From positions 1 to 64,000 of the IMG/VR virus record IMGVR_UViG_3300005573_000857: a DNA stretch of 64,000 nucleotides; one strand, 5' to 3'. A program made the position numbers and the translations under genes. The notes beneath the pieces were generated by a model. That model made no database searches. It was not told the origin of the DNA and saw only the letters and a list, made by a program, of their open reading frames with translations. Shown here piece after piece: positions 22,995 to 56,957 of the stretch; position 1 is the stretch's first letter, and the number at the start of each line of letters is the position of its first letter. This DNA is from a virus.

Positions 22995-25900
22995 ATGATT
23001 AAGCTCTTGGATGTTGACGACTTTGCAAAAGGGCTAGTTCCTGTCACTTCTACTGAGTACTTCTCACGAGCGGGTGAGTTTCATCCGGACGGGCTTTTTT
23101 CTGAGCAGATATTTGGTCCAGTTGGAACTTCAGACCGTAGAGAGAAGTACTCATTTATCGAGCTCCACACGAAAGTTGTCCACCCTACGGCGTATAGAAT
23201 AATTGTTGACCATCTTGACGGAAGAGTCGAAAAGTTTATCTCAACCGAAAAAGCGTATAATATTGTAAATGGAGCTCTTGTAGAAGATCCTGACGGTATT
23301 TCTGGTCTTGCATCCTTCATTAAAGTATTCCCTGAGATAAAGTGGAGAGGAGGAACTGCTAAAAGAGACTCTTTTATTCGCTTCTTGAAGCAGTCATATG
23401 AAGAAGGAACTCTTTTCATTAATAAAATTCCAGTCATTCCGCCAGCTTTTCGAGACGCAGTAAAGACAGAAGATAACCAGTGGGAGTTCGACCCTCTTAA
23501 TGACGAGTACTTGCTAGTTATGAGAAGAGCTTTTCAAGTAAGAGCTACGAAAGCTGGTCCTCTCTTTGACTTGTTGTGCTGTAGTCTCCAGGATGCAGTT
23601 ATCAAGTACGACAGTTTTGTAAGAGCTAAAATTGGAAAGAAGCATGGAGTTATTAGAGGGAATCTCCTTGGTAAAAGAGTCGATTTCTCCGGAAGAGCAG
23701 TAATTACTGTCAACCCTAATTTAAAGATTAACGAAGTCGGTATTCCAATAAGAATGGCGGTTCTTCTTTTTGAGCCATTTATAATTCACCATCTATTGTA
23801 CGTTAGAAAAGACCCTAGAGTGGCCGAACTCATAAAAAAGTTCACGGGTTCGGAGATGTCAGTAGACTCAGTAAAGAGAGTGCTAAGAGCTATACGGGCT
23901 GGAGATACTATTCCACAAGAGTTGTATGACATCATATTCGAAGTTACGAGTACTGTGGCGGAAAAAAGAGTAGTTCTTTGCAAGAGAGATCCAGTCCTGC
24001 ATCCAGAATCAGTACGTGCGTTTCAAGCTATTGTAGTGCCAGGAAGTACTTTGCAAATATGTTCTCTCCAAGTTGGTGGTTTTAATGCAGATTTCGATGG
24101 AGACCAGATGGCTGTTTACCATCCACTTACCGATGAGGCACAAGAAGAAGCAAGAACAAGAATGATGGGAGCGTTTACTGGAAGAACCTTTACGGATGTG
24201 AGCTTCGATATTACTAAAGAAGCTTGTGTCGGTTTATACATGCTTTCGTTAAATGTTCCCCTTGAGAAGAAGGCTGCACCCCACGCTACAGCGGAAGCAC
24301 TTGAAAATGCAGTTGATCCGTATACTCCTGTTCACTTTAAAGGACGAACTACTAGCGTAGGTAAAGCAATAATTAATGCTTGCTTTCCAGCAGAGTTCAG
24401 GTTCGTAGATGAAGTAATGACAAAGTCTGTAGTGAAGAAGCTCGTTTACGAAGTAGCTGAAAAGTTTGGTGAAGATGCTGCAAGACAAACTGCGTTTAAC
24501 CTTCAGAAGCAAGGGTTTAAGTGGGCTACACTTTTAGCACCAAGTATATCGCTAGATTCTCTCGAAGTTCCAAAAGAGATTTACGTCTTGAAGCAGAGAT
24601 TGGCAAAAGCAACGCCAGAAGAAGCTACTGAAATTCTAAAGAAAATGAAACAAATTATAACTGACCATTTGCAAGGCTCTCCTCTTTACAATATAGTCGA
24701 GTCTGGAGGTTCTAAGGGGTGGGACCAACCACTTCAGATTTTAGCTGCTAAAGGTGTTATAGCTGATCCTAAAGGTAATATTTTAGCTCCGATAAAGTCT
24801 TCATTTACAGACGGACTAACACCGTCTGAATTCTTCTACTCTGCTAGCGGTTCTAGAAAAGGAATAATTGATAGAGTTATAAATACAGCGGATACTGGGT
24901 ACATTTCTAGACAGTTGGTAATGTTACTAAATCCAGTTGAGATTCATCCGTCTCTAGCTGACTGCAAGACTACCACTTACTTAAACTTGAAGCTTGACAG
25001 CTCTTCTATAAACAGGTTAGAAGGCCGTTTTGTCGTTCGTAGGGGTAAAATAGTACTTTTCGATAAGAACGACTACAAACCAGGAGATGTCATCCAACTT
25101 CGGTCACCGGTTTATTGTCAGTCTTGGAAGATATGCCACACTTGCTATGGTAGATTGCTACTAAAACATAGAAGTCCCTTTATTGGAGTTATTGCTGCAC
25201 AGAGAATTGGCGAGAGAGGGACTCAGCTAATTATGAGGACCTTCCATACTGGAGGAGCAGTCTCTCTTGAGAAAAAAGATATCCTTAATGATATAGTGTC
25301 TAACAACGACTTGCTAACTAAAAGTGACATCAGTAAGTATTTGAAACAAGAAGGAAATACTCTAATAGCTTCTAAAGACTGTTCTCTTACAATTGATTTA
25401 GAGTACTACGAGGATGGTAATACTCTAAAGCTTGACGAAGATTCTGCTACGTTATGGGTAAAGAGTTTGGTTAGCACTTTAACTATCGGTGATATTAAAA
25501 TAGAAGTTATTCTTGATTACGAAGCTACTATCTTTGCTAGAGAATTTTCTAGAACTGACAGATTTATTGTTCTTACCTTTAAAGAAGGCGAGTCTATTTT
25601 AGAAGTTTCTACAGAAGCTCAAGACATTAAAAAGCAAGTTCTCTACTTACGAAGACTTCTTGCTGGAAAAGAAGTCTTCAAAGATGTAGACCACCTCTTT
25701 TATAGGTTGCTCAAAATTTATAGTCCACCAGTAGCAGACATAGATATCGTTCATTTGGAAGTGTTGCTATCTCAGTGTCTTAGAGACAGTTCTAATCCAT
25801 CTATTCCAGCTAGACTTATGCTTGCTAAGGGTAAGTATAGTCCAGCTCTGGCCGATATAAAGAAGAACATTTTTGCATCCGGTTTTCTACAGGGTATTGC

Positions 25901-26009
25901 TTTCGAAAATGTTGGTGAAGCTATTGAGAGTGGTATAACTGCTCCCAAAATCCTGCAGCCGTCTATTATAGAAAGGATTATGACCGGAGAGATTACCCCA
26001 AAAGATTAG
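22995..26009 (+). CDS. Phage RNA polymerase beta'-like subunit, copy 1 (no N-terminal Zn-binding domain)
   Basis: GLFSEQIFG, LLGKRVDFSGRAVI, R.PVLH, NADFDGD, RKG..D....TA..GY..R, CHTCYG, GE..TQL.MRTFH. Confidence 0.95.
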   Translation: MIKLLDVDDFAKGLVPVTSTEYFSRAGEFHPDGLFSEQIFGPVGTSDRREKYSFIELHTKVVHPTAYRIIVDHLDGRVEKFISTEKAYNIVNGALVEDPDGISGLASFIKVFPEIKWRGGTAKRDSFIRFLKQSYEEGTLFINKIPVIPPAFRDAVKTEDNQWEFDPLNDEYLLVMRRAFQVRATKAGPLFDLLCCSLQDAVIKYDSFVRAKIGKKHGVIRGNLLGKRVDFSGRAVITVNPNLKINEVGIPIRMAVLLFEPFIIHHLLYVRKDPRVAELIKKFTGSEMSVDSVKRVLRAIRAGDTIPQELYDIIFEVTSTVAEKRVVLCKRDPVLHPESVRAFQAIVVPGSTLQICSLQVGGFNADFDGDQMAVYHPLTDEAQEEARTRMMGAFTGRTFTDVSFDITKEACVGLYMLSLNVPLEKKAAPHATAEALENAVDPYTPVHFKGRTTSVGKAIINACFPAEFRFVDEVMTKSVVKKLVYEVAEKFGEDAARQTAFNLQKQGFKWATLLAPSISLDSLEVPKEIYVLKQRLAKATPEEATEILKKMKQIITDHLQGSPLYNIVESGGSKGWDQPLQILAAKGVIADPKGNILAPIKSSFTDGLTPSEFFYSASGSRKGIIDRVINTADTGYISRQLVMLLNPVEIHPSLADCKTTTYLNLKLDSSSINRLEGRFVVRRGKIVLFDKNDYKPGDVIQLRSPVYCQSWKICHTCYGRLLLKHRSPFIGVIAAQRIGERGTQLIMRTFHTGGAVSLEKKDILNDIVSNNDLLTKSDISKYLKQEGNTLIASKDCSLTIDLEYYEDGNTLKLDEDSATLWVKSLVSTLTIGDIKIEVILDYEATIFAREFSRTDRFIVLTFKEGESILEVSTEAQDIKKQVLYLRRLLAGKEVFKDVDHLFYRLLKIYSPPVADIDIVHLEVLLSQCLRDSSNPSIPARLMLAKGKYSPALADIKKNIFASGFLQGIAFENVGEAIESGITAPKILQPSIIERIMTGEITPKD

Positions 26010-26019
26010 AGGACGAAAA

Positions 26020-29000
26020 ATGATTGTCTTCGATAGATTACGATTGTATACAATGGTTACTGACGGGCCAAAATACTATCCACTTGATAAAGCCCACCCA
26101 TTTCTACTTGTTTACTTTTCAGAAAATTCTACTTTTTCTGAAGACTACCACAAGTTAAATATTCGCTATATGGACGTCCGTTCTGTAGTTATACCGGTTA
26201 CTCGTTATCCGAGAACTAGACTTATGCCTGACTATAGGAAGTTGCTCCGGTCGTATAAGTTATTTCCGTACCCAGTTGGTAGTCAACCACCTAAGCAAAA
26301 CCTTATATACGATACTTCGCTTTACGTAACTTCGGTCGATGCTGCACTAAAACCGGTTAACTACCGCCAGAGAGCTGGACGATACATTCTAAGCATTTTA
26401 GACTCTGCCTTTGCTCAGTTTCCAGATTATAGAAAGACTTTACTTTATGTAGTAGACATTACGAAGCCTTTTCCGAAGTACATCAATAGGAAGATTTTCC
26501 CAGTCTTGATGCAAATTAGAGATGGTAACTTCTTATTCGACAACTTCTTGCTCTGTACGATTGGACCTAAGGGCCCGCGATACCGTTTGTTGATGAAAGA
26601 CAAACAGTACAACTTCCAGAGATTATACATGTACGTGAAAGCTACTACTTACACAGAAGTAGAGGAAGAAGAAACTGAAGAAAAAGCAGAAGCAGCTGCC
26701 ACTCTTGTAGTGTCTTCCATTCCGAAAGAAGTACTTCCTGAAGAGAAGAAGGATAAAGTAAAACAAGCTACTAAAGACTTCTTGAAGACTGACAAAAGTC
26801 ATATGGAAAAAGTGCTTTCTAAAGAAGTTTCAGATGAGTACATGTCGAATTTAGCTATTGCTTCCGTCTTGCAGAAAGTCTCTGGAAATTTCGATCGCAC
26901 TAAAAACTTATGGAAGATAATGTCTGTAAAGAAAGTAGATCCCTCAAAAGTGCTAAAGAAAGTAGCTAAAGATGTTGTTGACCAGATTCTTGTAAAGAAG
27001 CCTCCAGTCAATACTGCTACTGATCCAGTTACTAAACATATGGATGTAGTAGATGTTACGAACAGAAAGTCACCGGAACACTTGTTCCAGAAAAGGCAAA
27101 TAGATTTCCAGACGAACTTGAAGAAAGACGTTACTAACTCGTTTAAAGTTTTGGAGAAGAAAGAGACTCCGCTCTACGTAAAAGAAGTTTCTATTGAAGA
27201 CAAAGAAAAGAAGCCCGGTAGCTTAGAGCCGTCAGACATTAGCGTAGTAAAAGTAAGTCTGCAAGATGCTTCTGGAAGAAAGCACGACGTTTCTATAGAA
27301 ATTCCTAAGATTGACAAGTTTGGTACGTTTAGAGTTAATGGGCAGCGGAAGTGCTTAGTAAACCAAGTAGTTACTTGTCCAATAAGTTTCCCAAAGAAGT
27401 ACGATTCACGTTTTGAGAGTTCGTATTCGAGTTTTCATATCTACAGTAAACGGGGAAGGATAAATTACTTAGAAGCTTTTATCGCTTCATATAAGATTCC
27501 TCTTTTAGTTTTATTGTCGTACGTTTTTGGCTTTGAAGAAACTTTAAAAGCGTACGGTATTAAGTACAAAGTCCAACCCAAACAAGAAGGAGAATTTTCG
27601 GTAAAGATAGCTCCAAAAACGTTTGTCGTTTTCGAAAACGTAGACTCGGAGCTAAAAAGAGAGCTAGTAAATTCGTTTTCCAAAGCTGGCTTATGGAAGT
27701 TAGACATTTCGGCGGCTTTCCCGACAAAAGAGTTTTTTACGGAAGCTTTGCACAAAATTACTGGTAGAATAAATTCTTCTTACCTTGTAAATGAAGTAAC
27801 TGCTAATGTGGTTGATCCAGTAGCACGACAGATACTTATAAATATGCAACTTCCTTCTGACCTGTTTAGTATTATTTTCTACATGTCTTCGAAAGTTGTA
27901 GAGGGTTACGTTCAAGAGAGGACGGATCTATCTAACTTAAGAGTAAGAGGATCCGAAGTTCTTACTCACTTGATCCAGAAGCAAGTTTTAGCAGCTTTTA
28001 CTGCATACAGAGAGCAAGTTTTATCTGGAAATAAGAATCCGCAGTTCACTATAAGTCCGACAAAAGTTTTGCATGATTTCGTAAATTCCGATATTGTGAC
28101 GCTTATGGAATTTGCGAACCCAGTAGAAGAAATGTCTAGCATAACGAGGACCACACCAATTGGTAGAGGTGTTGGCGGAATAGCTGACAGAGAAGCTATA
28201 CAGATAGAGGCAAGAAACGTCCATCCATCTTTCTTTGGCAATATAGATCCTCTCGATACTCCTGAAGGACCCAACGTTGGCGTCACACAACAGTTAGCTA
28301 TCGATGCTACTGTCACATCTGCTAGAGGACTATTTCAAGTTAAGCCAATCGATGACAGAGAAGGTGCAGGAATTCTTTCTACTAGCACTTGCTTAATTCC
28401 GTTTGTAGAGAATAACGATGGTGTTAGAATAATGATGGCTGCTAACCAAGCTCGTCAAGCTCAACCTTTAAAAGATCCAGAGCCTCCAATAGTTAGAAGT
28501 GGTTTTGAGTCTCTTCTAACTAACGTTTTGTCTGACAACTTTGTAAAGAGATCGCCATGTAATGGGGTGGTCCGAAAAGTAACAAGAGATTCTATTGTAA
28601 TTGCTTGTAGAACTGGAAAACAAGTAGTTGACATAACTCCAGTCCACTTACGGTCTGGCTCTGGGAAGAATACTCTTAGTGTTTTTATTCCGAAGGTTGT
28701 AGAAGGCCAGTCAGTTAAGCAGGGTTCTATAATAGCGGAAGGGTCTTGTATTTCAGATGGAACTATAGCCTTAGGCAGGACGTTATGTGTCTGCTTAATG
28801 CCATACAAGGGTTATAACTTCGAAGACGCAATAGTAATAAACGAAAAGCTAGTGGAAAATGACAAACTAACTTCTCTCCATGGTATAACGATCGATGTAG
28901 ATGTTAGCGAAAAAGATAGACTACTATACATAGCTTCTATAGGACAAAGAACTGAAAAGGGACAAATATTGCTAAAAAAGTCTATTGGCGAAGTAGAAGA

Positions 29001-30102
29001 ACTAATTGGTTATGAGGAAGAGAGAGACGATATTGATGTGGCAGAAGGATACTTTGTCCAGAAAAGTCCGGGTGGTGTTGTAGTAGATATAGAAGTTTTC
29101 TGCAATACAAATCCAGCTAAGTTCCCGGCTTTGCGTGACTTAATTGAAAGAACGAACAAGAAGCATGGAGTATCAAGTGGTAACTACTACACGAGGGAAG
29201 GAAGATTTAAGGGAATAAAAGTTAGATTTAAAGTAGAGCAAGAGCTGAAAATTCAGCTTGGGGACAAGCTTTGCAACCGATACGGAAATAAGGGAATTAT
29301 CTCTCTTATTGAAAAAGACGACTTAATGCCAAGAACACCCTGGGGTGAAACAGTAGACGTCATACTAAATCCCATAGGTGTTTTAAGCAGAATGAACGTT
29401 GGCCAGTTATTTGAGATGTATACTGGCTTAATTTCTAGAGCGTTAGCTTTTAAGTTCTTGGTTTTGTCTAGGACACAAGCAATTGACTTAGCTCGAAAAG
29501 TCCTGCAAGTGTTAGACACATCTAAGAACCAGCAGTTTAGTTCTTCATTTATTAGAGCTCTTAGTAATTTGTCGGAACGAGCATACAAAGAGTTTCTTGA
29601 GAAGTTAAAGAAGAGTACTTTTTTACCGATTGTTATTCCTCCTTTTGCTGCACCAAAGCAAGACAAAATTCGAGCTGCCCTTAGACTGCTGGGCTTAGAA
29701 CCAGCGTATCATTTGTACTTGCCAGAATTTGGGACTAAAACTCATTACAAAGTTCCAGTTGGATACATGTACATCTTAAAGTTGGAGCATTTGGGCGAAA
29801 TGAAGCTCCATGCTAGGTCAACTGGTCCAACTATTTCGAGAACATTGCAGCCAACTGCTGGTAAGAGGAGAGAAGGAGGACAGAGAGTTGGTGAAGCCGA
29901 CACTTATGCCCTTATATCTCAAAACTGCTTAAAAGTTTTAGACGAACTATTTGGTCCTTTAAGCGACGATGTAGTTACTAAAGAAGAGATTATTTCAGAT
30001 ATCGTTAGGACTGGATCAGCTAAGTGGAGGCCATCGAAGACGTCTCCAATACGAGAGTTAGTAAACAGCTACTTTATAGCGTTAATGTTAGAGAGGCAGT
30101 AA
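26020..30102 (+). CDS. Phage RNA polymerase beta-like subunit, copy 1, with long N-terminal extension
   Basis: RNVHPS.FG.I.P..TPEG.NVG, ENND..R.MM..NQ.RQ, GYNFEDA, GDK...RYGNKG, KLEH, GGQRVGE. Confidence 0.95.
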   Translation: MIVFDRLRLYTMVTDGPKYYPLDKAHPFLLVYFSENSTFSEDYHKLNIRYMDVRSVVIPVTRYPRTRLMPDYRKLLRSYKLFPYPVGSQPPKQNLIYDTSLYVTSVDAALKPVNYRQRAGRYILSILDSAFAQFPDYRKTLLYVVDITKPFPKYINRKIFPVLMQIRDGNFLFDNFLLCTIGPKGPRYRLLMKDKQYNFQRLYMYVKATTYTEVEEEETEEKAEAAATLVVSSIPKEVLPEEKKDKVKQATKDFLKTDKSHMEKVLSKEVSDEYMSNLAIASVLQKVSGNFDRTKNLWKIMSVKKVDPSKVLKKVAKDVVDQILVKKPPVNTATDPVTKHMDVVDVTNRKSPEHLFQKRQIDFQTNLKKDVTNSFKVLEKKETPLYVKEVSIEDKEKKPGSLEPSDISVVKVSLQDASGRKHDVSIEIPKIDKFGTFRVNGQRKCLVNQVVTCPISFPKKYDSRFESSYSSFHIYSKRGRINYLEAFIASYKIPLLVLLSYVFGFEETLKAYGIKYKVQPKQEGEFSVKIAPKTFVVFENVDSELKRELVNSFSKAGLWKLDISAAFPTKEFFTEALHKITGRINSSYLVNEVTANVVDPVARQILINMQLPSDLFSIIFYMSSKVVEGYVQERTDLSNLRVRGSEVLTHLIQKQVLAAFTAYREQVLSGNKNPQFTISPTKVLHDFVNSDIVTLMEFANPVEEMSSITRTTPIGRGVGGIADREAIQIEARNVHPSFFGNIDPLDTPEGPNVGVTQQLAIDATVTSARGLFQVKPIDDREGAGILSTSTCLIPFVENNDGVRIMMAANQARQAQPLKDPEPPIVRSGFESLLTNVLSDNFVKRSPCNGVVRKVTRDSIVIACRTGKQVVDITPVHLRSGSGKNTLSVFIPKVVEGQSVKQGSIIAEGSCISDGTIALGRTLCVCLMPYKGYNFEDAIVINEKLVENDKLTSLHGITIDVDVSEKDRLLYIASIGQRTEKGQILLKKSIGEVEELIGYEEERDDIDVAEGYFVQKSPGGVVVDIEVFCNTNPAKFPALRDLIERTNKKHGVSSGNYYTREGRFKGIKVRFKVEQELKIQLGDKLCNRYGNKGIISLIEKDDLMPRTPWGETVDVILNPIGVLSRMNVGQLFEMYTGLISRALAFKFLVLSRTQAIDLARKVLQVLDTSKNQQFSSSFIRALSNLSERAYKEFLEKLKKSTFLPIVIPPFAAPKQDKIRAALRLLGLEPAYHLYLPEFGTKTHYKVPVGYMYILKLEHLGEMKLHARSTGPTISRTLQPTAGKRREGGQRVGEADTYALISQNCLKVLDELFGPLSDDVVTKEEIISDIVRTGSAKWRPSKTSPIRELVNSYFIALMLERQ

Positions 30103-30168: not shown

Positions 30169-30732
30169 GTGACGAAAGTTCTTAGTTCAATGCAAATCTT
30201 AGAGTTCGAAGAGCATGACGATGTAGATATTGCAGAAGAATCTAGTAAAGAGCATATGATGCAAGAAATAATATCTTCGCTTTCTACACCGTTATTTGAG
30301 TCTACATACAAGTTATTTATGCCAGAAGTACGTAAGCTTGACTTTGCCACTCAGCAACAGTTTTGTTCTTCTATTTTGGAGAGAGTCGGACAAGTTTATT
30401 CTTTTTCACCTATTGACGTTTCTCTAGAGAGCAAAGATGACATAGAAGATGTTTATAAGCTAGTGGAATTTCTTGAATTTGACAACTTGGACTTCTTTGC
30501 TAAACTTTTCAGAAAACTTAGGGCTAACCCACTTTTGGTCGACATACGTGAATTTCTTCAAGAGAAGAAGACAGAAGTAGACTCTTTTATATCCACATTT
30601 AGAAGTGGTTCGAGATTAATTGACCAGTTTCTTATGTCATATCAGTGGGAAAATATGCTGCATTTTTTGTCAGAACGAGCGTTTCGACAGAAGGTCGAAA
30701 TAGCGGTTACACTAGAAGGAGGAGAGATATGA
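30169..30732 (+). CDS. Acidic hypothetical protein
   Basis: GGAGG SD. Confidence 0.65.
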   Translation: MTKVLSSMQILEFEEHDDVDIAEESSKEHMMQEIISSLSTPLFESTYKLFMPEVRKLDFATQQQFCSSILERVGQVYSFSPIDVSLESKDDIEDVYKLVEFLEFDNLDFFAKLFRKLRANPLLVDIREFLQEKKTEVDSFISTFRSGSRLIDQFLMSYQWENMLHFLSERAFRQKVEIAVTLEGGEI

Positions 30733-40056: not shown

Positions 40057-40070
40057 TAAGATGAATAAGT

Positions 40071-40466: not shown

Positions 40467-40489
40467 AGGAGGCGGAGGTTTAGAGAGAT

Positions 40490-40804: not shown

Positions 40805-40844
40805 AAGTAGAAAATATGGTAGCAACTTTACTGGAGGTGCAAAG

Positions 40845-47001: not shown

Positions 47002-47016
47002 GGGAGGTTGGAATAG

Positions 47017-47352: not shown

Positions 47353-47366
47353 AGAGGAAGAAACTA

Positions 47367-48670: not shown

Positions 48671-48679
48671 TAAGGAGGA

Positions 48680-49412: not shown

Positions 49413-49420
49413 AACAAACT

Positions 49421-49450
49421 GGGAACTCACTAATTCGTTAGTGAGTTCCC
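49421..49450. promoter_or_regulatory. Perfect 13-bp hairpin with TTCG loop
   Basis: GGGAACTCACTAA-TTCG-TTAGTGAGTTCCC; no + strand U-tract; an A-rich run precedes it. Confidence 0.7.
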
Positions 49451-49492
49451 GTAGATCTAGTCTGGAAGGCAGAGAATAAAAATAATGGAGAG

Positions 49493-50359
49493 GTGTTCAT
49501 GCAGATAGAGAAGTTAGTTCTCGTCGGCTTGGGATCTCTTGGAAGTTTTCTGTGTGAGAAATTATGCAAACTGAGAAAACTTAGGGAAATTACTCTCATT
49601 GACTACGATATCGTAGAACGAAAAAACTTGGAGACAAGTAACTTTAAACAAAGTGACGTTGGTCTACTAAAAGTAGATGCAATGGCCAAGCTTGTAAAAG
49701 CAACTAGCAAAGAGATAAGAGTAAGAAAAATCCCAGAAAAGTTTGTCGAAGGACAAACAAAGATCCCAAAAGCCGATCTTGTATTAGACACTCGAGACTT
49801 TAACTACGATAGAGGAAAGTTAATCGATGCTCGTCTATTCCTTTCCCTACCGTATCTTGTAGTTGACTGCAGGAAAAATGTAACTTACCACAGAAAGTAC
49901 GAAGGAAAGTATCCGTTGAGTATAACGAGAGAAGACATTGTCGATGCCAGTAACCATGCTTACTCTCTTATAGCTAGAGGATACTTAGACCATCTTTTGA
50001 GAAGACAATCAGTCTATACGATAGAGATTGACAAGATTACGAAAGACTTCTTAGAAAGTTCGCATACTTCGTACGATTTTGCTTGCGATATTGACGAAAG
50101 CAGGATTTCAAACATAGTTGCGAATATTCCAGCTGTTCTCGAAATGAACAACCAGGCAGAAGTCGTCGTTTATCTTGGAAGTAAAAAAGATCCAGTCATT
50201 TCAAGAAAGCTTCCGCAAAACTTCTTAAGAACGCCGGATGATGTTTCCTCTTGTTTTCTTTCTATGCTAAAAGGTCTTCCAGACTTTAGGAACTACTTTG
50301 TTGTAGTTTCTAAGAAGGACTTTTGCATAGAACTCATTCCAGAAACTGCTTCCGCATAG
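49493..50359 (+). CDS. ThiF/E1-like adenylyltransferase with possible C-terminal beta-grasp domain
   Basis: LVGLGSLGS, LIDYDIVE.KNL, DVG..KVD, DLVLDTRD. Confidence 0.8.
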   Translation: MFMQIEKLVLVGLGSLGSFLCEKLCKLRKLREITLIDYDIVERKNLETSNFKQSDVGLLKVDAMAKLVKATSKEIRVRKIPEKFVEGQTKIPKADLVLDTRDFNYDRGKLIDARLFLSLPYLVVDCRKNVTYHRKYEGKYPLSITREDIVDASNHAYSLIARGYLDHLLRRQSVYTIEIDKITKDFLESSHTSYDFACDIDESRISNIVANIPAVLEMNNQAEVVVYLGSKKDPVISRKLPQNFLRTPDDVSSCFLSMLKGLPDFRNYFVVVSKKDFCIELIPETASA

Positions 50360-50367
50360 AGGCGAAA

Positions 50368-50751
50368 ATGAACGTAGTCAGAAAAGAAGTAAACATTTAC
50401 CCAAGTAAAGTAAGAATTTACGGCAAGCTCTACAGTGTCGAACCGCGCAGTGAAGAAGTAAAGATAAAGAAAATTACTTTGTACCTAGATAGAGCTAACC
50501 GCTTGACGAAGGTAGTAGTGGACACCAAAGTTCACCCAAACTGCGACCCACGAACGAAAGAGTTTTGTCTTCCAGAAGAAGTTAAGAAATTAGAGTACAA
50601 TGAAACTTTAGTAAAGTTGGTCGGTTCTCTTCTTTCCGTCTGGAATCTAGACAATTGTTTTGCGAAACTCCATTTCTTGAACTATTTTAACTTATGTGAA
50701 GAGGAGGTAGTAGGTAAATGGCACTCAGAGAAGAATTTAAAGCCAAAATAA
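50368..50751 (+). CDS. E2/UBC-like conjugating-enzyme fold protein
   Basis: VHPNCDPRTKEFCL followed by LVGSLLSVWNLDN, matching HPN-x7-C and the LL..xN.d helix of E2s. Confidence 0.6.
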   Translation: MNVVRKEVNIYPSKVRIYGKLYSVEPRSEEVKIKKITLYLDRANRLTKVVVDTKVHPNCDPRTKEFCLPEEVKKLEYNETLVKLVGSLLSVWNLDNCFAKLHFLNYFNLCEEEVVGKWHSEKNLKPK

Positions 50752-50885
50752 GAAACACTGTTTACGAAACAACACACCAGTTTTTCTCTAGTATTAAGCA
50801 GGCAATTAATAATTGTATCGACATGATTGAAGAATATGTAAAAGAAAAGACCGATGAACTCTTCGGTAAGGAGGAGGAAAAATGA
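50718..50885 (+). CDS. 55-aa helical protein (not in ORF track)
   Basis: ATG after GAGGAGG/AGGT: MALREEFKAKIRN...GKEEEK; ATGA overlap with the next gene. Confidence 0.55.
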   Translation: MALREEFKAKIRNTVYETTHQFFSSIKQAINNCIDMIEEYVKEKTDELFGKEEEK

Positions 50886-51097
50886 GTGTTTTCGGTCAAG
50901 AAGCAGTAGAGGAAATTAAGTCTATCGTTAAATCTTGTTTCGACGAAGTGACAAAGAGTGAGAAACAAGAAGCTATTAAGTTAATAGAAGAAAAACTTAG
51001 CAAACTTGTCGCAGACGAGGTGAGTAACTACTTTAGAAAAATTTCTACATATGTTCTATATGGGGAGATTGTCAATAAATTGGAGGAAAAAAAGTAA
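50882..51097 (+). CDS. 71-aa helical protein translationally coupled to RNAP beta' 2
   Basis: GGAGGAGG SD; TAATG overlap. Confidence 0.65.
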   Translation: MSVFGQEAVEEIKSIVKSCFDEVTKSEKQEAIKLIEEKLSKLVADEVSNYFRKISTYVLYGEIVNKLEEKK

Positions 51098-53796
51098 TGC
51101 CAGAACTCTTTAACATTGACGAGTTTTGCAAAGACCTACCAGAAGTGACGAGTTCGAAAATTAAAGAAAAGGGAAAGTTTAGTCCTCACGGGCTTTTTTC
51201 TGAGCAGATATTCGGTCCAGTTACTAACTACACTTGTCAGTGCGGTAAGTACTCTGGACCTTCTTCTCCAGTTGAGAAATGCGACATTTGCGGTGTCGAA
51301 ATAACCTCGTCAATTGAAAGGAGAAGAAGATTCGCCAAAATAGTTCTTCCATTAAAAGTAGTAAATCCGACATTCTACAACTTAATTGCAGTTACAGCTG
51401 GAAGAGTGAAGAGTCTATTAGACACACTAATGAAGGACGAGAAAAGCGTATTGTACAAAGAAGGAGACGAATATGTAGTAGCTCAAACTGCACCTCCGAA
51501 TGTAAAAGTATGGGAAAGATACGAAGCTATGGAAGAACTTATTAGAGGTCTGGCTACTTACACTGTAGAGAACAGTGACCCAGACGTCCCAATCGTTAAG
51601 TCTTGGAAATTCATAAAAGACAACATTGACAAGATGTTTATTAAGAACATTATCGTCCTTCCACCAGACTTGCGACCAATCTCGAAAGCTGGTAATGACG
51701 TGCAGAAAGCTGATCGTATAAACTGGTTTTACAACTTTATTCTGGTTAAGAAAGAGAAAATGAGAGATACTATGTTCGATGTTAACCAGAATAAAGCTCT
51801 CTTTTACGCGTACTTTAAGCAGCTACAGAAGGCTGTAAACGAGCTCTTCGACCACATAATAGAGAAGTTGTCCAAGAAAGAAGGACTAGTTAGAGGGAAC
51901 ATCTTGGGGAAGAGGGTAGATTTCTCTGGAAGAGCAGTGATAGTTCCAAAAGTAACTCTTAACATCGACGAGTGTGGTCTTCCGTACTTTATGCTTTTGG
52001 AAATCTACAAGATGCAGATTGCCAAGCGGCTCGTTGGAACTACCGTAAAAACTCTTAATGAAGCCATAGAGTATGTAGACGAGTGTATTCGAATGAAGAG
52101 CAAAGACCTGCTTGACGTATGTGAAGAGGTTACTAAGCATGAAGTATGTCTGCTAAATCGTCAACCTTCTTTGCACAGACTGAGTTTAGTTGGATTTAAA
52201 ATCAAAGTCTGTCTTGGTGACGTTATTTACCTCCATCCGCTAGTCTGCTCCGGTTTTAATGCAGATTTCGATGGAGACCAGATGGCTGTTTACATTCCCC
52301 TTTCTCCAGAAGCAAAGCAAGAGGTTCGAGAAAAGCTGATGATTACTAAGAACTTCTCGAATCCAGCAAATGCTTCTTTGTCAACTCTTCCAAACCAGGA
52401 CGTAGTCCTTGGTATCTACGCCTTAACTACAAACTCGTTCCCGAATTTAAGAAACTTGGTAGAGTGTAAGGGCAGCTTAGTTACTGAAAGCATGGCTATC
52501 TTTAATAAGTGCTTGCCTGATGACTACCCTTTAGTAAACAAAGTCGTAACGAAGAAAGAGTTAATCGAGATACTAACAGACATAAAAGAGAAGTACGACC
52601 CGGAAACAGTGAGAGTTGTTCTTGACGAAGTAAAGGAGAAAGGGTTCAGGTACTCTACACTTTTCGGAGCTTCATTGTCGCTTCAGTCCTGTTATGTGCC
52701 GGACCATGAAAAAGTAAGAGACGATCTTTACTCACCAAGTGATGTAAAAGAACAGATTGCGAAAGTTTCTGGAAAAGAATCTGAAACTATCTTACGTGAG
52801 AAATTTCCCTATGCCTACATGGTTGAGTCTGGGGCTCGTGGTAGCTGGGACCAAGTTCGTCAGATCGTCTTAACAAGAGGTTTTATTTCGAACTTCAAAG
52901 GACAAATCTTGAAGACTCCAGTAAAGAGAAGTCTTTTGGACGGACTTACTAGAGAAGAGTTCTTCTTGTCTACTTTTGGTTGCAGAAAAGGTCTTCTTGA
53001 TGTTGCACTAAACACTGGAGCATCTGGCTATTTGTCAAGGAAACTAGTGTTTACTGCTGCGAACGCTCTAGTAAGTGAAACAGTTGAAGATTGTGGTACT
53101 ACTGATTTACTTGAAGTTTATGTGGACTCGACTAAGAAAGCTAAGATGCTAATTGGTCGGTACTACAAAGATGCGTCTGGTAAACTCGACAAAATTACGA
53201 AGAAAAACTACGCACAGTTTTTGGGGAAGACTATATTTATAAGGAGCCCAATTTTCTGTCGTAGTCTAGAATTCTGCCACACTTGCTACGGAGATCTGTA
53301 TAAGACTCTGCATAGCCGCTTCGTTGGTGTTATAGCTGCACAAAGCTTAGGAGAGACGAATACTCAGCTAATATTGAGAACGTTCCATACTTCAGGAGTC
53401 GCTGTAGTAAAAGGCGAAGCCTCTCTGAAGCAGAAAGATATAGTAGCAGACTTGAGTGCAGCTTCGAAACTATTACACCAGTTAGAAGGAGTTAACTATA
53501 AAGATTTAGTGCACGATTTGTTCGAAGTCTACAATACTTCTAGAGAAATTTTCTCAGTCCACATTGAAGTTATTGTCTCTGAAATGATGTGGGCTGGAAA
53601 CGTTCTTTGGAGAATGGCGAAAAATAGAGACAAGATAACTCCAACGTACCATAGTGTCCAAAGCGTTCCTGCTAGACAAAGCTGGTTACTTGGTTTCGCT
53701 TTTTCTCATCCGAAGTGGAATTTGCTTAGAGGTGTGCAGTATTCTGGTGAGTACGTTGGTCCAATTGATAAGATGCTAAGAGGCGAGAGAATCTAA
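51097..53796 (+). CDS. Phage RNA polymerase beta'-like subunit, copy 2 (with Zn-binding domain)
   Basis: CQCGKY...CDICGVE, VLPPDLRP, LGKRVDFSGRAVI, NRQPSLHR, NADFDGD, SGARG, RTFH. Confidence 0.95.
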   Translation: MPELFNIDEFCKDLPEVTSSKIKEKGKFSPHGLFSEQIFGPVTNYTCQCGKYSGPSSPVEKCDICGVEITSSIERRRRFAKIVLPLKVVNPTFYNLIAVTAGRVKSLLDTLMKDEKSVLYKEGDEYVVAQTAPPNVKVWERYEAMEELIRGLATYTVENSDPDVPIVKSWKFIKDNIDKMFIKNIIVLPPDLRPISKAGNDVQKADRINWFYNFILVKKEKMRDTMFDVNQNKALFYAYFKQLQKAVNELFDHIIEKLSKKEGLVRGNILGKRVDFSGRAVIVPKVTLNIDECGLPYFMLLEIYKMQIAKRLVGTTVKTLNEAIEYVDECIRMKSKDLLDVCEEVTKHEVCLLNRQPSLHRLSLVGFKIKVCLGDVIYLHPLVCSGFNADFDGDQMAVYIPLSPEAKQEVREKLMITKNFSNPANASLSTLPNQDVVLGIYALTTNSFPNLRNLVECKGSLVTESMAIFNKCLPDDYPLVNKVVTKKELIEILTDIKEKYDPETVRVVLDEVKEKGFRYSTLFGASLSLQSCYVPDHEKVRDDLYSPSDVKEQIAKVSGKESETILREKFPYAYMVESGARGSWDQVRQIVLTRGFISNFKGQILKTPVKRSLLDGLTREEFFLSTFGCRKGLLDVALNTGASGYLSRKLVFTAANALVSETVEDCGTTDLLEVYVDSTKKAKMLIGRYYKDASGKLDKITKKNYAQFLGKTIFIRSPIFCRSLEFCHTCYGDLYKTLHSRFVGVIAAQSLGETNTQLILRTFHTSGVAVVKGEASLKQKDIVADLSAASKLLHQLEGVNYKDLVHDLFEVYNTSREIFSVHIEVIVSEMMWAGNVLWRMAKNRDKITPTYHSVQSVPARQSWLLGFAFSHPKWNLLRGVQYSGEYVGPIDKMLRGERI

Positions 53797-53819
53797 TAAC
53801 TAGAAAGGAGGTCTCTGGA

Positions 53820-56800
53820 TTGAGGATAGTAAATCCGTTTTTTCATCTTAGTGATGGGGGTATCTTCGAACTTAGAGAGAAAGACTATGCGTCAATTGAG
53901 CAGACAGTGAGAGAAATGCTAAAGCCAGCTGAAGAAGCTGGTTTCGTTATAAAAGAGTTTGAGTTGAGAGACCAGAGACCGTCTGTACGAGAACTGATGC
54001 CAACTCTAAAGAAGAATCTGGTAATAGTACTAGAAAAGAACAACTCTGTAGTGAATTTAACTACGCAAATTCCAAAGCTTGTTGACGGAAACTATATTGT
54101 AATTTCTGGAAGGAAGAAGGTACCCCTCTTCCAGTTGTTCGATTTGCCGATTGTTACAAGAGGTAAATCAATAAAGCTACGAACAAATGTTGCAACGTTG
54201 AGTCTAACTGTAAAGGACAAAAAAGGAGAGTCTGACCCCTTTTACGTATCTCTAAATTTCATGAACAAAGACGTTCCCTTTTCTCTCGTCCTGTTTTGCT
54301 GCTACGGATTCGATAGAGTAGTGGACATGTTTGGACTAGATAAACTCACTGAACTTCCAAGTAACTCGGGTCTTCTTGGTAAGTTGGAATGCGATTTCTT
54401 TTCGTACTACAGTGAATCGAAAGAATACACTCAAGAAGACTTTGTGCGAGAGCTTGGAAGATACTACACTTCTTACGATGCGAAAAAGAAAGGTGAAGAA
54501 GTAGTTTACGCGCTCGATCTCATTGCGAAAGTAGACGTTCCATCCTCTAGGTTCTTTACAACGGAGTCTGCTGTCAGTGAGTTATTGCAAGCTCTAAGAA
54601 TTGGTCACATTGACGATACTGACTTCAGAAATAAAAGAATACGCTGTTTCGAGTACATAGTGCTGGCTAAGCTGGCAAGAGACATTTACAACCTCTGTAT
54701 CGCTAGTCGTAACGCTTTGCGCCCAAAGTTTAGTACGAACTCTAAACAAGTTATCTCAGAATGTAAGACTTCGTCAATTATCCAGTACGATCAGTCACTG
54801 AATCCGATAGATGAACTGACAAAACTTAGCAGAGTTAGCTTAGCTGGTCCAGGAGCTTTTACTAAAGAAAATGTCCCAGAGTACTTAAGAGACGTTCATC
54901 CGTCAATGTTTGGTCGGGTGTGTTCTGTGGACACACCAGAAAGAGAGAACTGTGGTGTATTGCAAAGTCTGTTGCCAAAAGTAAAGCTAACTGAGCACAT
55001 GCGGTTCGACGAAGAAGTAGAAGATAAAGCCACAGTTTCGATAGCAGTCTCGATGGTTCCATTTTTAGAGCATGACGACCAAACTAGGTTGCAGATGGCT
55101 TCATCGCAAATGAGACAGGCTGTTACTCTTCTAAAAGTAGAGAAGCCCTACATTCGTTCTGGGTGCGAAGGACTGTACACAGATTATTCGTCTTTCATAA
55201 AAAGAGCTAGAAAGAATGGAGAGATCGTATATCGCGATGAGTCGTTCTGTGTGGTAGTATATGACGACAAAGATTTCGACATCTTTAAGGTCGGATTCAG
55301 GAAAACTCAGACAGAAAATATAGACTTCCTAGTTTGTAAGCATAAAGTTGGAGATAAAGTAAAAGCTGGCGATATAGTAGTTGAAAGCTTCTTCTGCACA
55401 AACGGAGAAATAAAGATAGGAAAGAATTTGTTAACGGTTTTAGCTACATGGCATGGCTTGAATTACGAAGATGCTATTCTAATTTCAGAAGAAGTTAGAG
55501 ACCGAGGTGATTTTACTTCTTTACACTTTATAGACTTATCCTTCGTCCTTCCGCCGAACAAGATACTTCTGGATTTGTCAGATGATAGCAAAGGAAAAAC
55601 TTATAGACCACTTCCGACTCCTTATAGCAAGATCGTTGTAAAGAGGAAGGATAAGGTCTTTGACATGCAAAGCGATAACGAAGTGCAAGAGGAAGTAATA
55701 GAAGACTATTCAGTTGTTGCTTTAGAGAAGGGTCAGAAGTATGCGGTAGTAAAGGAGATGTATGTAGATAATGATGTAGAAAAAGTTTTCGAAGAAGAAC
55801 AAGTTTATAGGACTGAGAGAGACGTAAAAATCTACTCTGTAAATATCTACGCTAACAAATGGTACGATAAAGTTCGCCCATTTGACGAGTGGGTGCAAGA
55901 AACGATAAGAATGCAACAGAAAAGAGAAAGAGATTTTCACGAAAGTCTATACAAGTTTATTCCAAGGGAAAAAGTGCAGGAGTTCATTCGAGATAATGGA
56001 TTAAACAAGTTCACTTCTCAAGGAAGCTACAGAATAAACGGAGAGCTTGTTAATGGAATGTACATAGAGATTCTTGGAGTATATGAAAAGCCGATAAACG
56101 TAGGCGACAAAATTGGAAATCGGCATGGTAATAAGGGAGTTGTAAATATTCTCCCAAAAGAAAAAATGCCGTTACTAGAAAATGGACGGCATGCCGAAGT
56201 ATGTGTAAGTCCGATGTCTACTATCTCGAGAATGAACGTAGGCCAGATCTTCGAGATGCATCTAGCGATGTCTTTACAAGACCTTAAGGCTAAGCTACTG
56301 AAAATGATAGAAGATGGAAAAAGTCAAGAAGAAATGAGAAAGTATCTTCTCGACTACATAAAGATAGTAGATGCTACGAAAGATAACTGGTTCTACAATC
56401 AGTTTGAGAGTCAGTTAGGTGTAATCGACAAGAAGTTTGTAGATGACCTTACTCTAGTGCAACCCCCGTTTGAGTCCTGTTCAAGAGAACAAGTTCTAGA
56501 AGCTTGCAAGTATACGAATACTCCACTTGAGTGTTCGATTTACGATCCAATAACGGGAGAGAAAGTTCTCAACAAAGTTGGATTTGGGTACATGTACTTC
56601 TTCAAGATGGTCCATATTGCCGAAGACAGGTTAGCTGCTAGAGGCATCGGAACGTATTCGAAAAGAACTCTACAACCTCTTGGAGGGAGAAGGAACAGAG
56701 GTGGACAAAGAGTTGGAGAAATGGAAATGTGTTGCTTTATAGCTCACGATGCTACAGAAAACTTGTACGAAACTCTCACTACAAAGTCCGATTCTATCGA

Positions 56801-56957
56801 CCTCAAGAACGAATACTTAAGAACCATTCTCGGATCGGACTTCGTTAGGAGACCCGATAAGATCGACGATGTCCCAGAGGCTGTAAAACTGCTAGACTCT
56901 TATTGCTTAGTAGTCGGTGTAAAGACGAAAAGCGATAAAAAGGAGGGTAGTGAATGA
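53820..56957 (+). CDS. Phage RNA polymerase beta-like subunit, copy 2
   Basis: RDVHPS.FGR.C...TPE..NCG, PFLEHDD..R..M...MRQA, NYEDA, GDKIGNRHGNKG, KMVH, GGQRVGEME, T.KSD. Confidence 0.95.
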   Translation: MRIVNPFFHLSDGGIFELREKDYASIEQTVREMLKPAEEAGFVIKEFELRDQRPSVRELMPTLKKNLVIVLEKNNSVVNLTTQIPKLVDGNYIVISGRKKVPLFQLFDLPIVTRGKSIKLRTNVATLSLTVKDKKGESDPFYVSLNFMNKDVPFSLVLFCCYGFDRVVDMFGLDKLTELPSNSGLLGKLECDFFSYYSESKEYTQEDFVRELGRYYTSYDAKKKGEEVVYALDLIAKVDVPSSRFFTTESAVSELLQALRIGHIDDTDFRNKRIRCFEYIVLAKLARDIYNLCIASRNALRPKFSTNSKQVISECKTSSIIQYDQSLNPIDELTKLSRVSLAGPGAFTKENVPEYLRDVHPSMFGRVCSVDTPERENCGVLQSLLPKVKLTEHMRFDEEVEDKATVSIAVSMVPFLEHDDQTRLQMASSQMRQAVTLLKVEKPYIRSGCEGLYTDYSSFIKRARKNGEIVYRDESFCVVVYDDKDFDIFKVGFRKTQTENIDFLVCKHKVGDKVKAGDIVVESFFCTNGEIKIGKNLLTVLATWHGLNYEDAILISEEVRDRGDFTSLHFIDLSFVLPPNKILLDLSDDSKGKTYRPLPTPYSKIVVKRKDKVFDMQSDNEVQEEVIEDYSVVALEKGQKYAVVKEMYVDNDVEKVFEEEQVYRTERDVKIYSVNIYANKWYDKVRPFDEWVQETIRMQQKRERDFHESLYKFIPREKVQEFIRDNGLNKFTSQGSYRINGELVNGMYIEILGVYEKPINVGDKIGNRHGNKGVVNILPKEKMPLLENGRHAEVCVSPMSTISRMNVGQIFEMHLAMSLQDLKAKLLKMIEDGKSQEEMRKYLLDYIKIVDATKDNWFYNQFESQLGVIDKKFVDDLTLVQPPFESCSREQVLEACKYTNTPLECSIYDPITGEKVLNKVGFGYMYFFKMVHIAEDRLAARGIGTYSKRTLQPLGGRRNRGGQRVGEMEMCCFIAHDATENLYETLTTKSDSIDLKNEYLRTILGSDFVRRPDKIDDVPEAVKLLDSYCLVVGVKTKSDKKEGSE

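What the first reader, a model, noticed from the sequence alone, without database searches (positions are those of the whole stretch)
22995..56957. Two complete, unsplit beta'/beta RNA polymerases in a phage with a T4-type replisome
Seen: two beta'(NADFDGD)-beta pairs (22995-30102 and 51097-56957), both in beta'->beta order (the reverse of bacterial rpoB-rpoC), both with a compact beta' (1004 and 899 aa), and no recognisable alpha subunit. Established: phiKZ/AR9-type phages have two RNAPs but with split subunits, while T4-like phages with gp13/gp44/gp45/gp46/gp47 use host RNAP. Inference: a lineage combining dual unsplit RNAPs with T4-like modules. Copy 1 lies by the baseplate genes and would be the virion-packaged enzyme; copy 2 lies among metabolic genes and would be the non-virion enzyme.
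Basis: partly seen in the sequence, partly recalled or inferred. Interest (0 to 1): 0.8.

Follow-up and report, generated by a model that had tools for sequence, protein, structure and literature searches.

The report
Two unsplit RNA polymerases, jumbo phage
A fragment of an uncultured giant T4-like phage carries two complete, undivided beta'/beta RNA polymerase gene pairs; the phage group was published in 2020, but one pair looks like the counterpart of phiKZ's virion-packaged polymerase and the other of its non-virion polymerase, a link the papers searched here do not mention.

Summary
Four intact ORFs (beta'1 1004 aa, beta1 1360 aa, beta'2 899 aa, beta2 1045 aa) have strong Rpb1/Rpb2 Pfam domains, and both beta' carry NADFDGD.

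It is not a chimera. The window is collinear over about 60 kb with a complete 277-kb relative. Five of five long relatives carry the same two pairs. Independent metagenome assemblies tile the interval between the pairs at even depth.

The lineage is already published as mReC (Weinheimer & Aylward 2020; unsplit beta/beta', T4 gp23-type capsid). Their supplementary table lists '_a_' and '_b_' pairs on one contig, but the text never discusses two enzymes.

New here: pair 1 resembles the virion RNAP of phiKZ/AR9-type phages and pair 2 the non-virion RNAP. The evidence is:
- reciprocal best matches for beta' N-halves;
- HMM scores that sort 13 of 13 beta pieces the same way;
- the same N-terminal zinc-ribbon deletion junction in pair-1 beta' and all nine vRNAP beta'N;
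- a beta'N tree joining them (88/86).

This is not decisive: the AU test does not reject a within-lineage duplication (p 0.18), and the beta tree is unresolved.

Virion packaging remains inferred. No alpha, sigma70, gp68/gp226 or chimallin was detected.

Verdict: a new variant of a known kind, of moderate interest.

The parts
19357..20229 (+). gp5/VgrG-type baseplate central spike protein (290 aa), 2.8 kb upstream of pair 1
   Evidence: PF04717 Phage_base_V 4.1e-9, above cut-off. phrog_430/13211 baseplate hub and tail lysozyme. Ortholog in G001 at the syntenic place, 55% identity.
22564..22577 (+). GAACAAA promoter-like motif, 38 nt before the ORF that heads the pair-1 operon
   Evidence: The motif is enriched about 10-fold upstream of genes in the complete relative G001: 29 sites, consensus rGAACAAAwwaAAAA. 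In this contig AACAAAC is intergenic in 6 of 14 occurrences. The function is inferred.
22602..22988 (+). Conserved 128-aa ORF immediately upstream of beta'1; no known family; candidate accessory subunit
   Evidence: No Pfam or PHROG hit. Ortholog directly upstream of beta'1 in G001, 34% identity, 7.6e-20.
22995..26009 (+). beta'1 (1004 aa), unsplit, NADFDGD, lacks the N-terminal zinc ribbon; vRNAP-type
26020..30102 (+). beta1 (1360 aa), unsplit, with an N-terminal extension of about 350 aa of unknown fold; vRNAP-type
30169..30732 (+). Conserved 187-aa ORF immediately downstream of beta1; no known family
   Evidence: No Pfam or PHROG hit. Syntenic ortholog in G001, 26% identity, 2.6e-15.
49413..49419 (+). 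AACAAAC motif variant, 80 nt before the E1-like gene that heads the pair-2 block
   Evidence: In G001 a full GAACAAA site lies 23 nt before the orthologous E1-like gene.
49493..50359 (+). ThiF/E1-like protein (288 aa) upstream of pair 2
   Evidence: PF00899 ThiF 2.5e-14. Ortholog directly upstream of beta'2 in G001.
50323..50751 (+). 142-aa ORF between the E1-like gene and beta'2 (called E2-like by a first-stage note; not verified here)
   Evidence: No Pfam or PHROG hit. Weak syntenic ortholog in G001, 2.8e-9.
51097..53796 (+). beta'2 (899 aa), unsplit, NADFDGD, keeps the zinc ribbon (CxC...CxxC); nvRNAP-type
53820..56957 (+). beta2 (1045 aa), unsplit; nvRNAP-type
56954..57805 (+). FolE2 GTP cyclohydrolase I, overlapping the beta2 stop codon; a metabolic gene, not an RNAP subunit
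   Evidence: PF02649 1.4e-62.

Best explanation
The window is the first 64 kb of a 92-kb fragment of an uncultured jumbo tailed phage. CheckV puts completeness at 29%, so the genome is about 300 kb. The phage belongs to the published mReC lineage, which has a T4 gp23-type capsid, a T4-type replisome, and its own multisubunit RNA polymerase.

The phage encodes two complete catalytic cores, each made of one beta' and one beta polypeptide.
- Pair 1 (22995-30102) is the counterpart of the virion RNAP of phiKZ/AR9-type phages.
- Pair 2 (51097-56957) is the counterpart of their non-virion RNAP.

By analogy, pair 1 would be made late, packaged in the head, injected with the DNA, and would transcribe early genes, including pair 2. 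Pair 2 would then transcribe middle and late genes. Infection would therefore be largely independent of host RNAP.

Shown: two intact pairs, conserved throughout the lineage, in a genuine phage genome, with specific similarity of pair 1 to vRNAP and of pair 2 to nvRNAP.

Inferred: orthology (about 0.65), packaging and temporal division of labour (about 0.5), and independence from host RNAP.
For: Real and lineage-wide:
- Pfam and PHROG hits.
- Five of five long relatives, including two complete genomes with terminal repeats (277 and 312 kb), each have exactly two beta' and two beta of the same size classes.
- Most window genes between 1.8 and 62.5 kb that have a homologue in G001 lie in the same order there, 159 to 61.5 kb, including both pairs and their small flanking ORFs.
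- Contigs from other samples tile 30.6-50.6 kb at even depth and run on into beta1.

Pair 1 matches vRNAP, pair 2 matches nvRNAP:
- The beta'1 N-half hits AR9 g145 (annotated virion beta'N) at 100.5 bits, against 42.3 for non-virion g270. In phiKZ it hits only gp180, a structural head protein.
- beta'2 hits g270 at 81.3 bits against 16.8 for g145. In phiKZ its best hit is gp55, with only a marginal hit on gp180 in one of two searches.
- An HMM of pair-1 beta scores higher on 7 of 7 vRNAP beta. An HMM of pair-2 beta scores higher on 5 of 5 nvRNAP betaC, and alone hits AR9 nv betaN (annotations).
- The zinc ribbon is deleted at the same junction (FGxx|GSxxR) in all five mReC copy-1 beta' and all nine vRNAP-type beta'N. 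It is kept in copy 2, bacteria, single-RNAP phages and most nv beta'N.
- The careful beta'N tree gives (mReC copy 1 + vRNAP) at 88/86, and all phage dual-RNAP sequences apart from bacteria at 91/83.
- In the six Chimalliviridae loci looked at (phiKZ included), the vRNAP beta'N gene is followed by vRNAP beta, directly or with one gene between, beside a giant tail lysin. That is the same beta'-then-beta order next to a tail or spike gene as here.
Against: - The AU test does not reject a tree in which mReC copy 1 and copy 2 form one clade (p 0.179).
- A tree of the conserved beta core leaves the five groups unresolved.
- The C-terminal halves of both beta' score alike on virion and non-virion beta'C.
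- Zinc-ribbon loss is not unique: AR9 and Staphylococcus phage DC4 nv beta'N also lack it.
- The N-terminal extension of beta1 shows no detectable homology to that of vRNAP beta.
- The GAACAAA motif precedes both RNAP blocks, and in G001 it precedes DNA polymerase and terminase alike. It therefore gives no early/late distinction.
- There is no proteomic or transcript evidence.
Confidence: 0.6

Rival explanations
1. The duplication happened inside the mReC lineage. The two pairs arose after mReC separated from phiKZ/AR9-type phages, and the likeness of pair 1 to vRNAP (zinc-ribbon loss, N-terminal extension) is convergent or a product of rate effects. Both enzymes could be non-virion, serving different gene classes, with host RNAP or one of the pairs starting the programme.
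For: - beta'1 and beta'2 are each other's best match outside their own orthologs (335 bits), above bacterial beta' (194 and 295 bits).
- The AU test does not reject a joint clade (p 0.179).
- The beta core tree is unresolved.
- The zinc ribbon was lost independently in some nv beta'N.
Against: - The reciprocal pattern holds in both subunits and in 13 of 13 beta comparisons. A merely faster-evolving copy would score lower on everything, not higher on vRNAP.
- The deletion junction is identical.
- The ML tree prefers copy 1 + vRNAP.
Confidence: 0.27
2. One of the two pairs is a decaying or non-functional duplicate.
For: None direct. In some relatives one gene is in two ORFs: G004 beta'1 as 226 + 780 aa, and G002 beta1 with an open frame of 1072 aa.
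Against: - Both pairs are full-length with intact NADFDGD in this contig and in relatives that share only 51-58% identity. That implies long purifying selection on both.
Confidence: 0.03
3. Assembly chimera of two genomes, or a host rpoBC locus captured in a viral bin.
For: None found.
Against: - GC is even (0.35-0.43) and GC skew is positive across the window.
- The window is collinear with a complete genome bounded by terminal repeats.
- Both pairs are present in five of five relatives.
- Independent samples bridge the interval.
- Identity to bacterial beta' is at most 29-31%, and both pairs fall outside bacteria in the trees.
- Terminase, tape measure and baseplate wedge genes are on the same contig.
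Confidence: 0.01

Closest known systems
mReC: multimeric-RNAP-encoding Caudovirales (Weinheimer & Aylward 2020, Nat Commun, PMC7481178)
   Same: - Uncultured IMG/VR phage contigs with unsplit beta and beta' of at least 800 aa and NADxDGD.
- T4 gp23-type MCP (PF07068).
- Some genomes over 200 kb.
- Their contig WOR52_10000459 (277,131 bp) is the collinear relative G001 used here.
- Their Supplementary Dataset 2 lists a beta 1362 / beta' 1005 '_a_' pair and a beta 1007 / beta' 904 '_b_' pair on one contig. These are the two size classes seen here.
   Different: - The paper treats 'the' mReC RNAP as one marker. Its text has no statement about two enzymes: searches for 'two copies', 'two sets' and 'second copy' gave 0 hits, and 'paralog' and 'duplicat' refer only to beta versus beta'.
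- According to a 2020 review of jumbo-phage RNAPs, it excluded phiKZ-type RNAPs from its trees, so no virion/non-virion correspondence was drawn.
phiKZ / AR9 (PBS1)-type dual multisubunit RNAPs (vRNAP + nvRNAP)
   Same: - Two paralogous two-barrel RNAPs in one jumbo phage.
- No alpha and no sigma70.
- beta'-then-beta order for the virion set, next to a tail or spike gene.
- Pair-specific sequence likeness, including the zinc-ribbon deletion.
   Different: - There, beta' and beta are each split into 2-3 polypeptides, giving 4-5 subunits. Here each is a single chain.
- Capsid type differs: the phiKZ-type phages are defined by their own MCP type, whereas the relatives here have gp23-type.
- DNA polymerase differs: a divergent PolB there, against a hit to the phrog_262 DNA polymerase family in G001.
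- No gp68/gp226 promoter-specificity subunit and no chimallin were detectable here.
Cultured phages with a single unsplit beta'/beta pair (Rhizobium RHph_TM30 group, Vibrio Va2, Cobetia Carin-5, Yersinia GN1/YerA41)
   Same: - Unsplit beta' of 1080-1190 aa.
- Where the beta gene was seen (Carin-5, GN1), beta' then beta order.
   Different: - Only one beta' per genome (places_in_record = 1).
- They keep the zinc ribbon and branch outside the dual-RNAP clade.
- Carin-5 has an annotated sigma factor beside beta'.
- Identity to the window's proteins is at most 29%.
Fusobacterium phage JD-Fnp4 (180 kb, cultured)
   Same: It has a vRNAP-type beta' that is unsplit (930 aa), lacks the zinc ribbon, and sits inside the vRNAP clade.
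   Different: - Its second beta' is a split N-terminal piece of 466 aa.
- Its catalytic motif is a variant (GDLDGD).
- Its beta genes were not detectable with the window's beta1.

Membership tests
Multisubunit (two-barrel) RNAP beta' / Rpb1 | Double-psi beta-barrel domain with the NADFDGD metal-binding motif (Pfam RNA_pol_Rpb1_2), plus Rpb1_5 | tested here: met
   Both beta': Rpb1_2 at 7.6e-34 and 1.1e-34, Rpb1_5 at 1.6e-24 and 1.3e-25. NADFDGD starts at 0-based offset 363 in beta'1 and 387 in beta'2. Best solved-structure relatives for beta'1 are bacterial beta' at about 222 bits.
Multisubunit RNAP beta / Rpb2 | Rpb2_6 (hybrid-binding/DPBB) and Rpb2_3 (fork) domains | tested here: met
   Rpb2_6 at 1.3e-55 and 4.6e-43. 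Rpb2_3 at 6.8e-11 and 4.2e-13. Rpb2_7 in beta2. beta1 against bacterial beta reaches up to 262 bits.
mReC lineage (Weinheimer & Aylward 2020) | Viral contig encoding both beta and beta' of at least 800 aa with NADxDGD, clustering apart from cellular RNAP | tested here: met
   Lengths are 899-1360 aa and the motif is present. Both pairs fall outside bacteria in the trees. The pairs are 51-58% identical and collinear with a contig that is in the paper's own list.
mReC lineage (Weinheimer & Aylward 2020) | T4 gp23-type major capsid protein (PF07068) and shared TerL family | tested here: inconclusive
   PF07068 was found in five of five long relatives (1e-31 to 1e-35) but not on this 29%-complete contig. 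TerL is present on the contig outside the window (phrog_2, 2.6e-37).
phiKZ/AR9-type dual RNAP system | Two paralogous RNAP sets in one genome | tested here: met
phiKZ/AR9-type dual RNAP system | beta and beta' each split into two or more polypeptides | tested here: not met
   Each subunit is a single ORF here and in most relatives.
phiKZ/AR9-type dual RNAP system | One set present in the virion and injected | not testable with these tools
   Only homology to annotated virion subunits is available: AR9 g145 and g189, and phiKZ gp178 and gp180 'structural head protein'.
phiKZ/AR9-type dual RNAP system | Fifth nvRNAP subunit (phiKZ gp68 / AR9 gp226) | tested here: inconclusive
   gp68 gave no hit in G000, G001 or G004. 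gp226 gave one 14.5-bit hit to a lysine/alanine-rich protein with a hydrophobic C-terminal stretch, judged spurious. These subunits are very divergent, so absence is not shown.
Chimalliviridae (nucleus-forming phages) | Chimallin shell protein | tested here: inconclusive
   phiKZ gp54 gave no hit in six mReC records. The positive control Xoo-sp14 was found (6.1e-22), but PCH45, described as nucleus-forming in PMC10299810, was missed, so sensitivity is limited.
T4-like phages (Iyer et al. 2021 'group 2' jumbo phages) | gp23-type MCP, classic replisome genes, and no own RNAP (host RNAP redirected by phage sigma factors) | tested here: not met
   The capsid and replisome parts are met. The 'no RNAP' part is not met: there are two RNAPs. 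No sigma70 region 2 was found in two complete relatives. T4 gp55/gp33 were not specifically searched. The definition comes from PMC7824862.

The most novel reading that the evidence does not exclude
The split into a virion and a non-virion RNAP may be older than the divergence of the T4-capsid mReC phages and the phiKZ/AR9-type phages. Alternatively, the pair may have moved between them as a module.

On this reading, the undivided mReC subunits preserve the ancestral state, and the 4-5-piece enzymes of phiKZ-type phages are derived by fission. That would contradict the proposal that split phage subunits are pre-LUCA relics that later fused into cellular beta and beta'.

It would also offer a two-polypeptide vRNAP that could be expressed and studied, whereas as of a 2020 review (PMC7598289) no vRNAP had been purified.
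Probability: 0.4. Interest if true: 0.7.

Novelty: new variant of a known kind. Interest (0 to 1): 0.55.

Why it matters
Dual virion/non-virion multisubunit RNAPs are regarded as a hallmark of phiKZ/AR9-type phages and are known only in split form. T4-like jumbo phages are described as lacking an RNAP (PMC7824862).

If the mReC pairs really are unsplit counterparts of vRNAP and nvRNAP, three things follow:
- The two-polymerase, host-independent transcription strategy is much more widespread. About 300 related IMG/VR loci were found, and near-identical DNA turns up in runs labelled hot-spring, sediment and rhizosphere metagenomes.
- The strategy is not tied to the phage nucleus.
- Subunit fission in phiKZ-type enzymes is probably derived.

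A vRNAP made of two chains would also be a more tractable object for biochemistry and structure determination.

Tried and rejected
- **Fifth subunit downstream of beta2.** The ORF overlapping the beta2 stop is FolE2, not an RNAP subunit.
- **gp226-like candidate in G004.** It is a lysine/alanine-rich protein with a hydrophobic C-terminal stretch, so the hit was dropped as spurious.
- **Homology of the beta1 N-terminal extension (1-353) to the vRNAP beta N-terminal region.** hhalign aligns only from residue 364 onwards. Pfam gave nothing. The protein-atlas features gave only sub-threshold Rpb2_1 leads at 0.88 (the first attempt, did not complete).
- **Using the GAACAAA motif to assign early or late classes.** It precedes both RNAP blocks, and in G001 also DNA polymerase, ligase-like and terminase genes. 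The exact 7-mer AACAAAC enriched in this contig is not enriched in G001, where GAACAAA is.
- **beta-core phylogeny.** It was unresolved.
- **phiKZ gp180 and gp55 as deposited.** They end before the DxDxD motif, so other Chimalliviridae were used as better representatives.
- **RNA evidence.** No RNA holder was listed among the public runs.
- **Phage-database DNA/protein search.** It found no close relative, at most 29-31% identity.
- **Not attempted.** Structure prediction and complex prediction were not run.

Full report
**Observation.**
- Pfam gives strong Rpb1 domains for 22995-26009 (1004 aa) and 51097-53796 (899 aa).
- It gives strong Rpb2 domains for 26020-30102 (1360 aa) and 53820-56957 (1045 aa).
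- PHROGs agrees.
- Both beta' carry NADFDGD.
- The paralogs are old. The beta' pair is 32% identical over most of its length (E 3e-113). The beta pair is 25-31% identical, and beta1 has about 350 extra N-terminal residues.

**What the DNA is.** The window is the first 64 kb of a 91,893-bp IMG/VR contig that CheckV rates 29% complete.
- The window encodes a gp44-type clamp loader, a UvsX-like recombinase, class I RNR, topoisomerase II subunits, gp47/gp46-like SbcD/SbcC, a helicase, and a gp5/VgrG-type spike.
- The rest of the contig encodes TerL, a tape measure with a lysin domain, and baseplate wedge proteins.
- Base composition is uniform.

**Not a chimera.**
- A scan of IMG/VR found 297 loci encoding a relative of beta'2; the 80 best kept are 51-58% identical.
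- All five long contigs tested carry exactly two beta' and two beta genes of the same two size classes. Two of them are complete genomes with direct terminal repeats, 277 and 312 kb.
- Gene-by-gene BLAST shows the window's genes with a G001 homologue, from 1.8 to 62.5 kb, mostly in the same order along 159 to 61.5 kb of the 277-kb genome. This includes both pairs, the small ORFs flanking pair 1, and the E1-like gene before pair 2.
- Contigs from independently labelled metagenome runs hold 74-97% of the sampled words. They tile the whole 30.6-50.6 kb interval between the pairs at even depth and run on into beta1.
- All five long relatives have a T4 gp23-type capsid protein.

**Prior knowledge.** This lineage is the 'mReC' clade of Weinheimer & Aylward 2020 (PMC7481178).
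- They describe viral contigs with unsplit beta and beta' of at least 800 aa, NADxDGD, gp23-type MCP, and three contigs over 200 kb.
- The 277-kb relative is their contig WOR52_10000459.
- Their Supplementary Dataset 2 lists, for contig SMTZ23_10000109, an '_a_' pair (beta 1362, beta' 1005) and a '_b_' pair (beta 1007, beta' 904).
- So the two pairs are in the public record. However, the main text never mentions two enzymes.
- According to the Sokolova et al. review, the authors left phiKZ-type RNAPs out of their trees.
- Iyer et al. 2021 describe T4-like ('group 2') jumbo phages as lacking an RNAP, and dual RNAPs as a group 1 (phiKZ) trait with split subunits.
- Later papers I could search do not connect mReC to vRNAP/nvRNAP.

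**Which pair is which.** I searched the four proteins against the phiKZ and AR9 genomes and read the annotations under the hits.

For beta':
- The beta'1 N-half matches AR9 g145 ('virion RNAP subunit, beta' N-terminus') at 100.5 bits, against 42.3 bits for non-virion g270. In phiKZ it matches only gp180, a structural head protein.
- beta'2 matches g270 at 81.3 bits against 16.8 for g145. Its best phiKZ match is gp55, with only a marginal hit on gp180 in one of two searches.
- The C-terminal halves do not discriminate.

For beta:
- An HMM of five mReC beta1 sequences outscored an HMM of six beta2 sequences on all seven vRNAP beta (for example 140 against 106, and 77 against 58 bits).
- The beta2 HMM outscored the beta1 HMM on all five nvRNAP betaC (146 against 105, 134 against 60, 79 against 33, 56 against 26, 38 against 35).
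- Only the beta2 HMM hit AR9 nv betaN (87 bits) (annotations).

An alignment of 34 beta' N-halves shows a discrete shared character:
- The N-terminal zinc ribbon (CxC...CxxC) is missing at the same junction. Compare IFGPV|GTSDRR here with IFGRV|GSTDRE in phiKZ gp180.
- It is missing in all five mReC copy-1 proteins and all nine vRNAP-type beta'N.
- It is present in all six copy-2 proteins, bacteria, single-RNAP phages and most nv beta'N.
- AR9 and DC4 nv beta'N have also lost it, so the character is not free of homoplasy.

**Phylogeny.**
- A careful IQ-TREE analysis (LG+C20+F+G4 by PMSF, 452 columns) places mReC copy 1 as sister to the vRNAP clade (88/86).
- It places all dual-RNAP sequences together, apart from bacteria and single-RNAP phages (91/83).
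- Copy 2 is basal, and the nv clade sits next to (copy 1 + v) on a short branch (85/75).
- The AU test does not reject holding copy 1 and copy 2 together (delta lnL 9.2, p 0.179).
- A tree of the conserved beta core (372 columns) leaves the groups unresolved.
- The orthology claim therefore rests on concordant but not decisive evidence. I put it at about 0.65.

**Other components.**
- No alpha (PF01193), no sigma70 region 2 (PF04542), no phiKZ gp68 and no convincing AR9 gp226 homologue were found in the contig or in two complete relatives.
- No chimallin was detected either, although the control shows limited sensitivity.
- The gene overlapping the beta2 stop is FolE2, not a subunit.
- Two small ORFs of unknown family are conserved directly beside pair 1 (22602-22988 and 30169-30732). 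They are candidate accessory subunits.

**Promoter lead.**
- In the complete relative, GAACAAA is enriched about 10-fold upstream of genes. There are 29 sites, 23-117 nt before start codons, with consensus rGAACAAAwwaAAAA.
- In the window it lies 38 nt before the ORF heading the pair-1 operon (22564). A variant lies before the E1-like gene ahead of pair 2 (49413).
- The motif's AACA core followed by conserved A's about 7-8 nt downstream recalls the AR9 nvRNAP late promoter 5'-AACA-N6-TA-3' (PMC9209446). That is a resemblance only.
- The motif also precedes DNA polymerase and terminase in G001, so it does not separate temporal classes.

**Verdict.** The finding is real and ordinary as regards assembly. 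The lineage and its unsplit subunits have been published since 2020, and the duplicate sets are visible in that paper's supplement. What appears unreported is that the two sets correspond to the virion and non-virion polymerases of phiKZ/AR9-type phages. That makes this an unsplit variant of the dual-RNAP strategy in a T4-capsid phage without a detectable phage nucleus. Packaging, timing and host independence remain inferences.

Noticed in passing
window 56954-57805, 41290-41937, 47349-48392: FolE2 (PF02649, 1.4e-62), a QueD-like 6-pyruvoyl-tetrahydropterin synthase (phrog_2389, 3.1e-32) and a radical SAM enzyme with a weak QueE-like hit. This is a likely 7-deazaguanine (preQ0-type) pathway, probably for DNA modification. 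QueC and DpdA were not searched for.
   Followed up: partly
window 49493-50751: A ThiF/E1-like gene (PF00899, 2.5e-14) and a small downstream ORF sit directly ahead of beta'2. The pair is conserved in the same place in the 277-kb relative. A first-stage note calls the small ORF E2-like; I did not verify the E2 part.
   Followed up: partly
window 39602-40088 and 40484-40814: In a sediment-metagenome strain about 99% identical to the window, two small-ORF segments are replaced by 5-7 other letters. This is natural cassette variation in the block of small genes between the two RNAP loci, which has no G001 counterparts.
   Followed up: no
L115 6004-8796 and L125 (Fusobacterium phage JD-Fnp4, ON464764): A cultured 180-kb phage has an unsplit vRNAP-type beta' (930 aa, mis-annotated as 'alpha', no zinc ribbon, variant catalytic motif GDLDGD) together with a split nv-type beta' N-piece. 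It may be an intermediate between the mReC and phiKZ-type arrangements.
   Followed up: partly
L139 (G004, 312-kb relative) and L137 (G002): In G004, beta'1 is in two ORFs (226 + 780 aa). In G002, the beta1 open frame is only 1072 aa with the Rpb2_6 match in two pieces. This could be introns, inteins, frameshifts or natural fission, and bears on how split subunits arise.
   Followed up: no
G000 contig 72830-73915 (- strand; outside the window, L175 9830-10915): A transposase gene (phrog_506, 3.7e-40) sits just upstream of the TerL gene in the structural region, preceded by a GAACAAA site.
   Followed up: no
G001 (L177-L190), 29 sites; window 22564, 13014, 14586: Promoter-like motif rGAACAAAwwaAAAA, about 10-fold enriched upstream of genes in a relative that shares only about 50% protein identity. 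Its AACA core and spacing recall the AR9 nvRNAP late promoter.
   Followed up: partly
AF399011 (phiKZ) gp180 and gp55, L097/L098: As deposited, both phiKZ beta'N ORFs end just before the catalytic DxDxD motif (gp180 ends ...LGAD). The record's gene models look truncated or interrupted at that point.
   Followed up: no
window 44000-53900 (public runs): Near-identical DNA (74-97% of the sampled words) occurs in runs labelled hot-spring and sediment metagenomes from different studies, and 43% in a rhizosphere run. The phage or close strains therefore recur across samples.
   Followed up: partly
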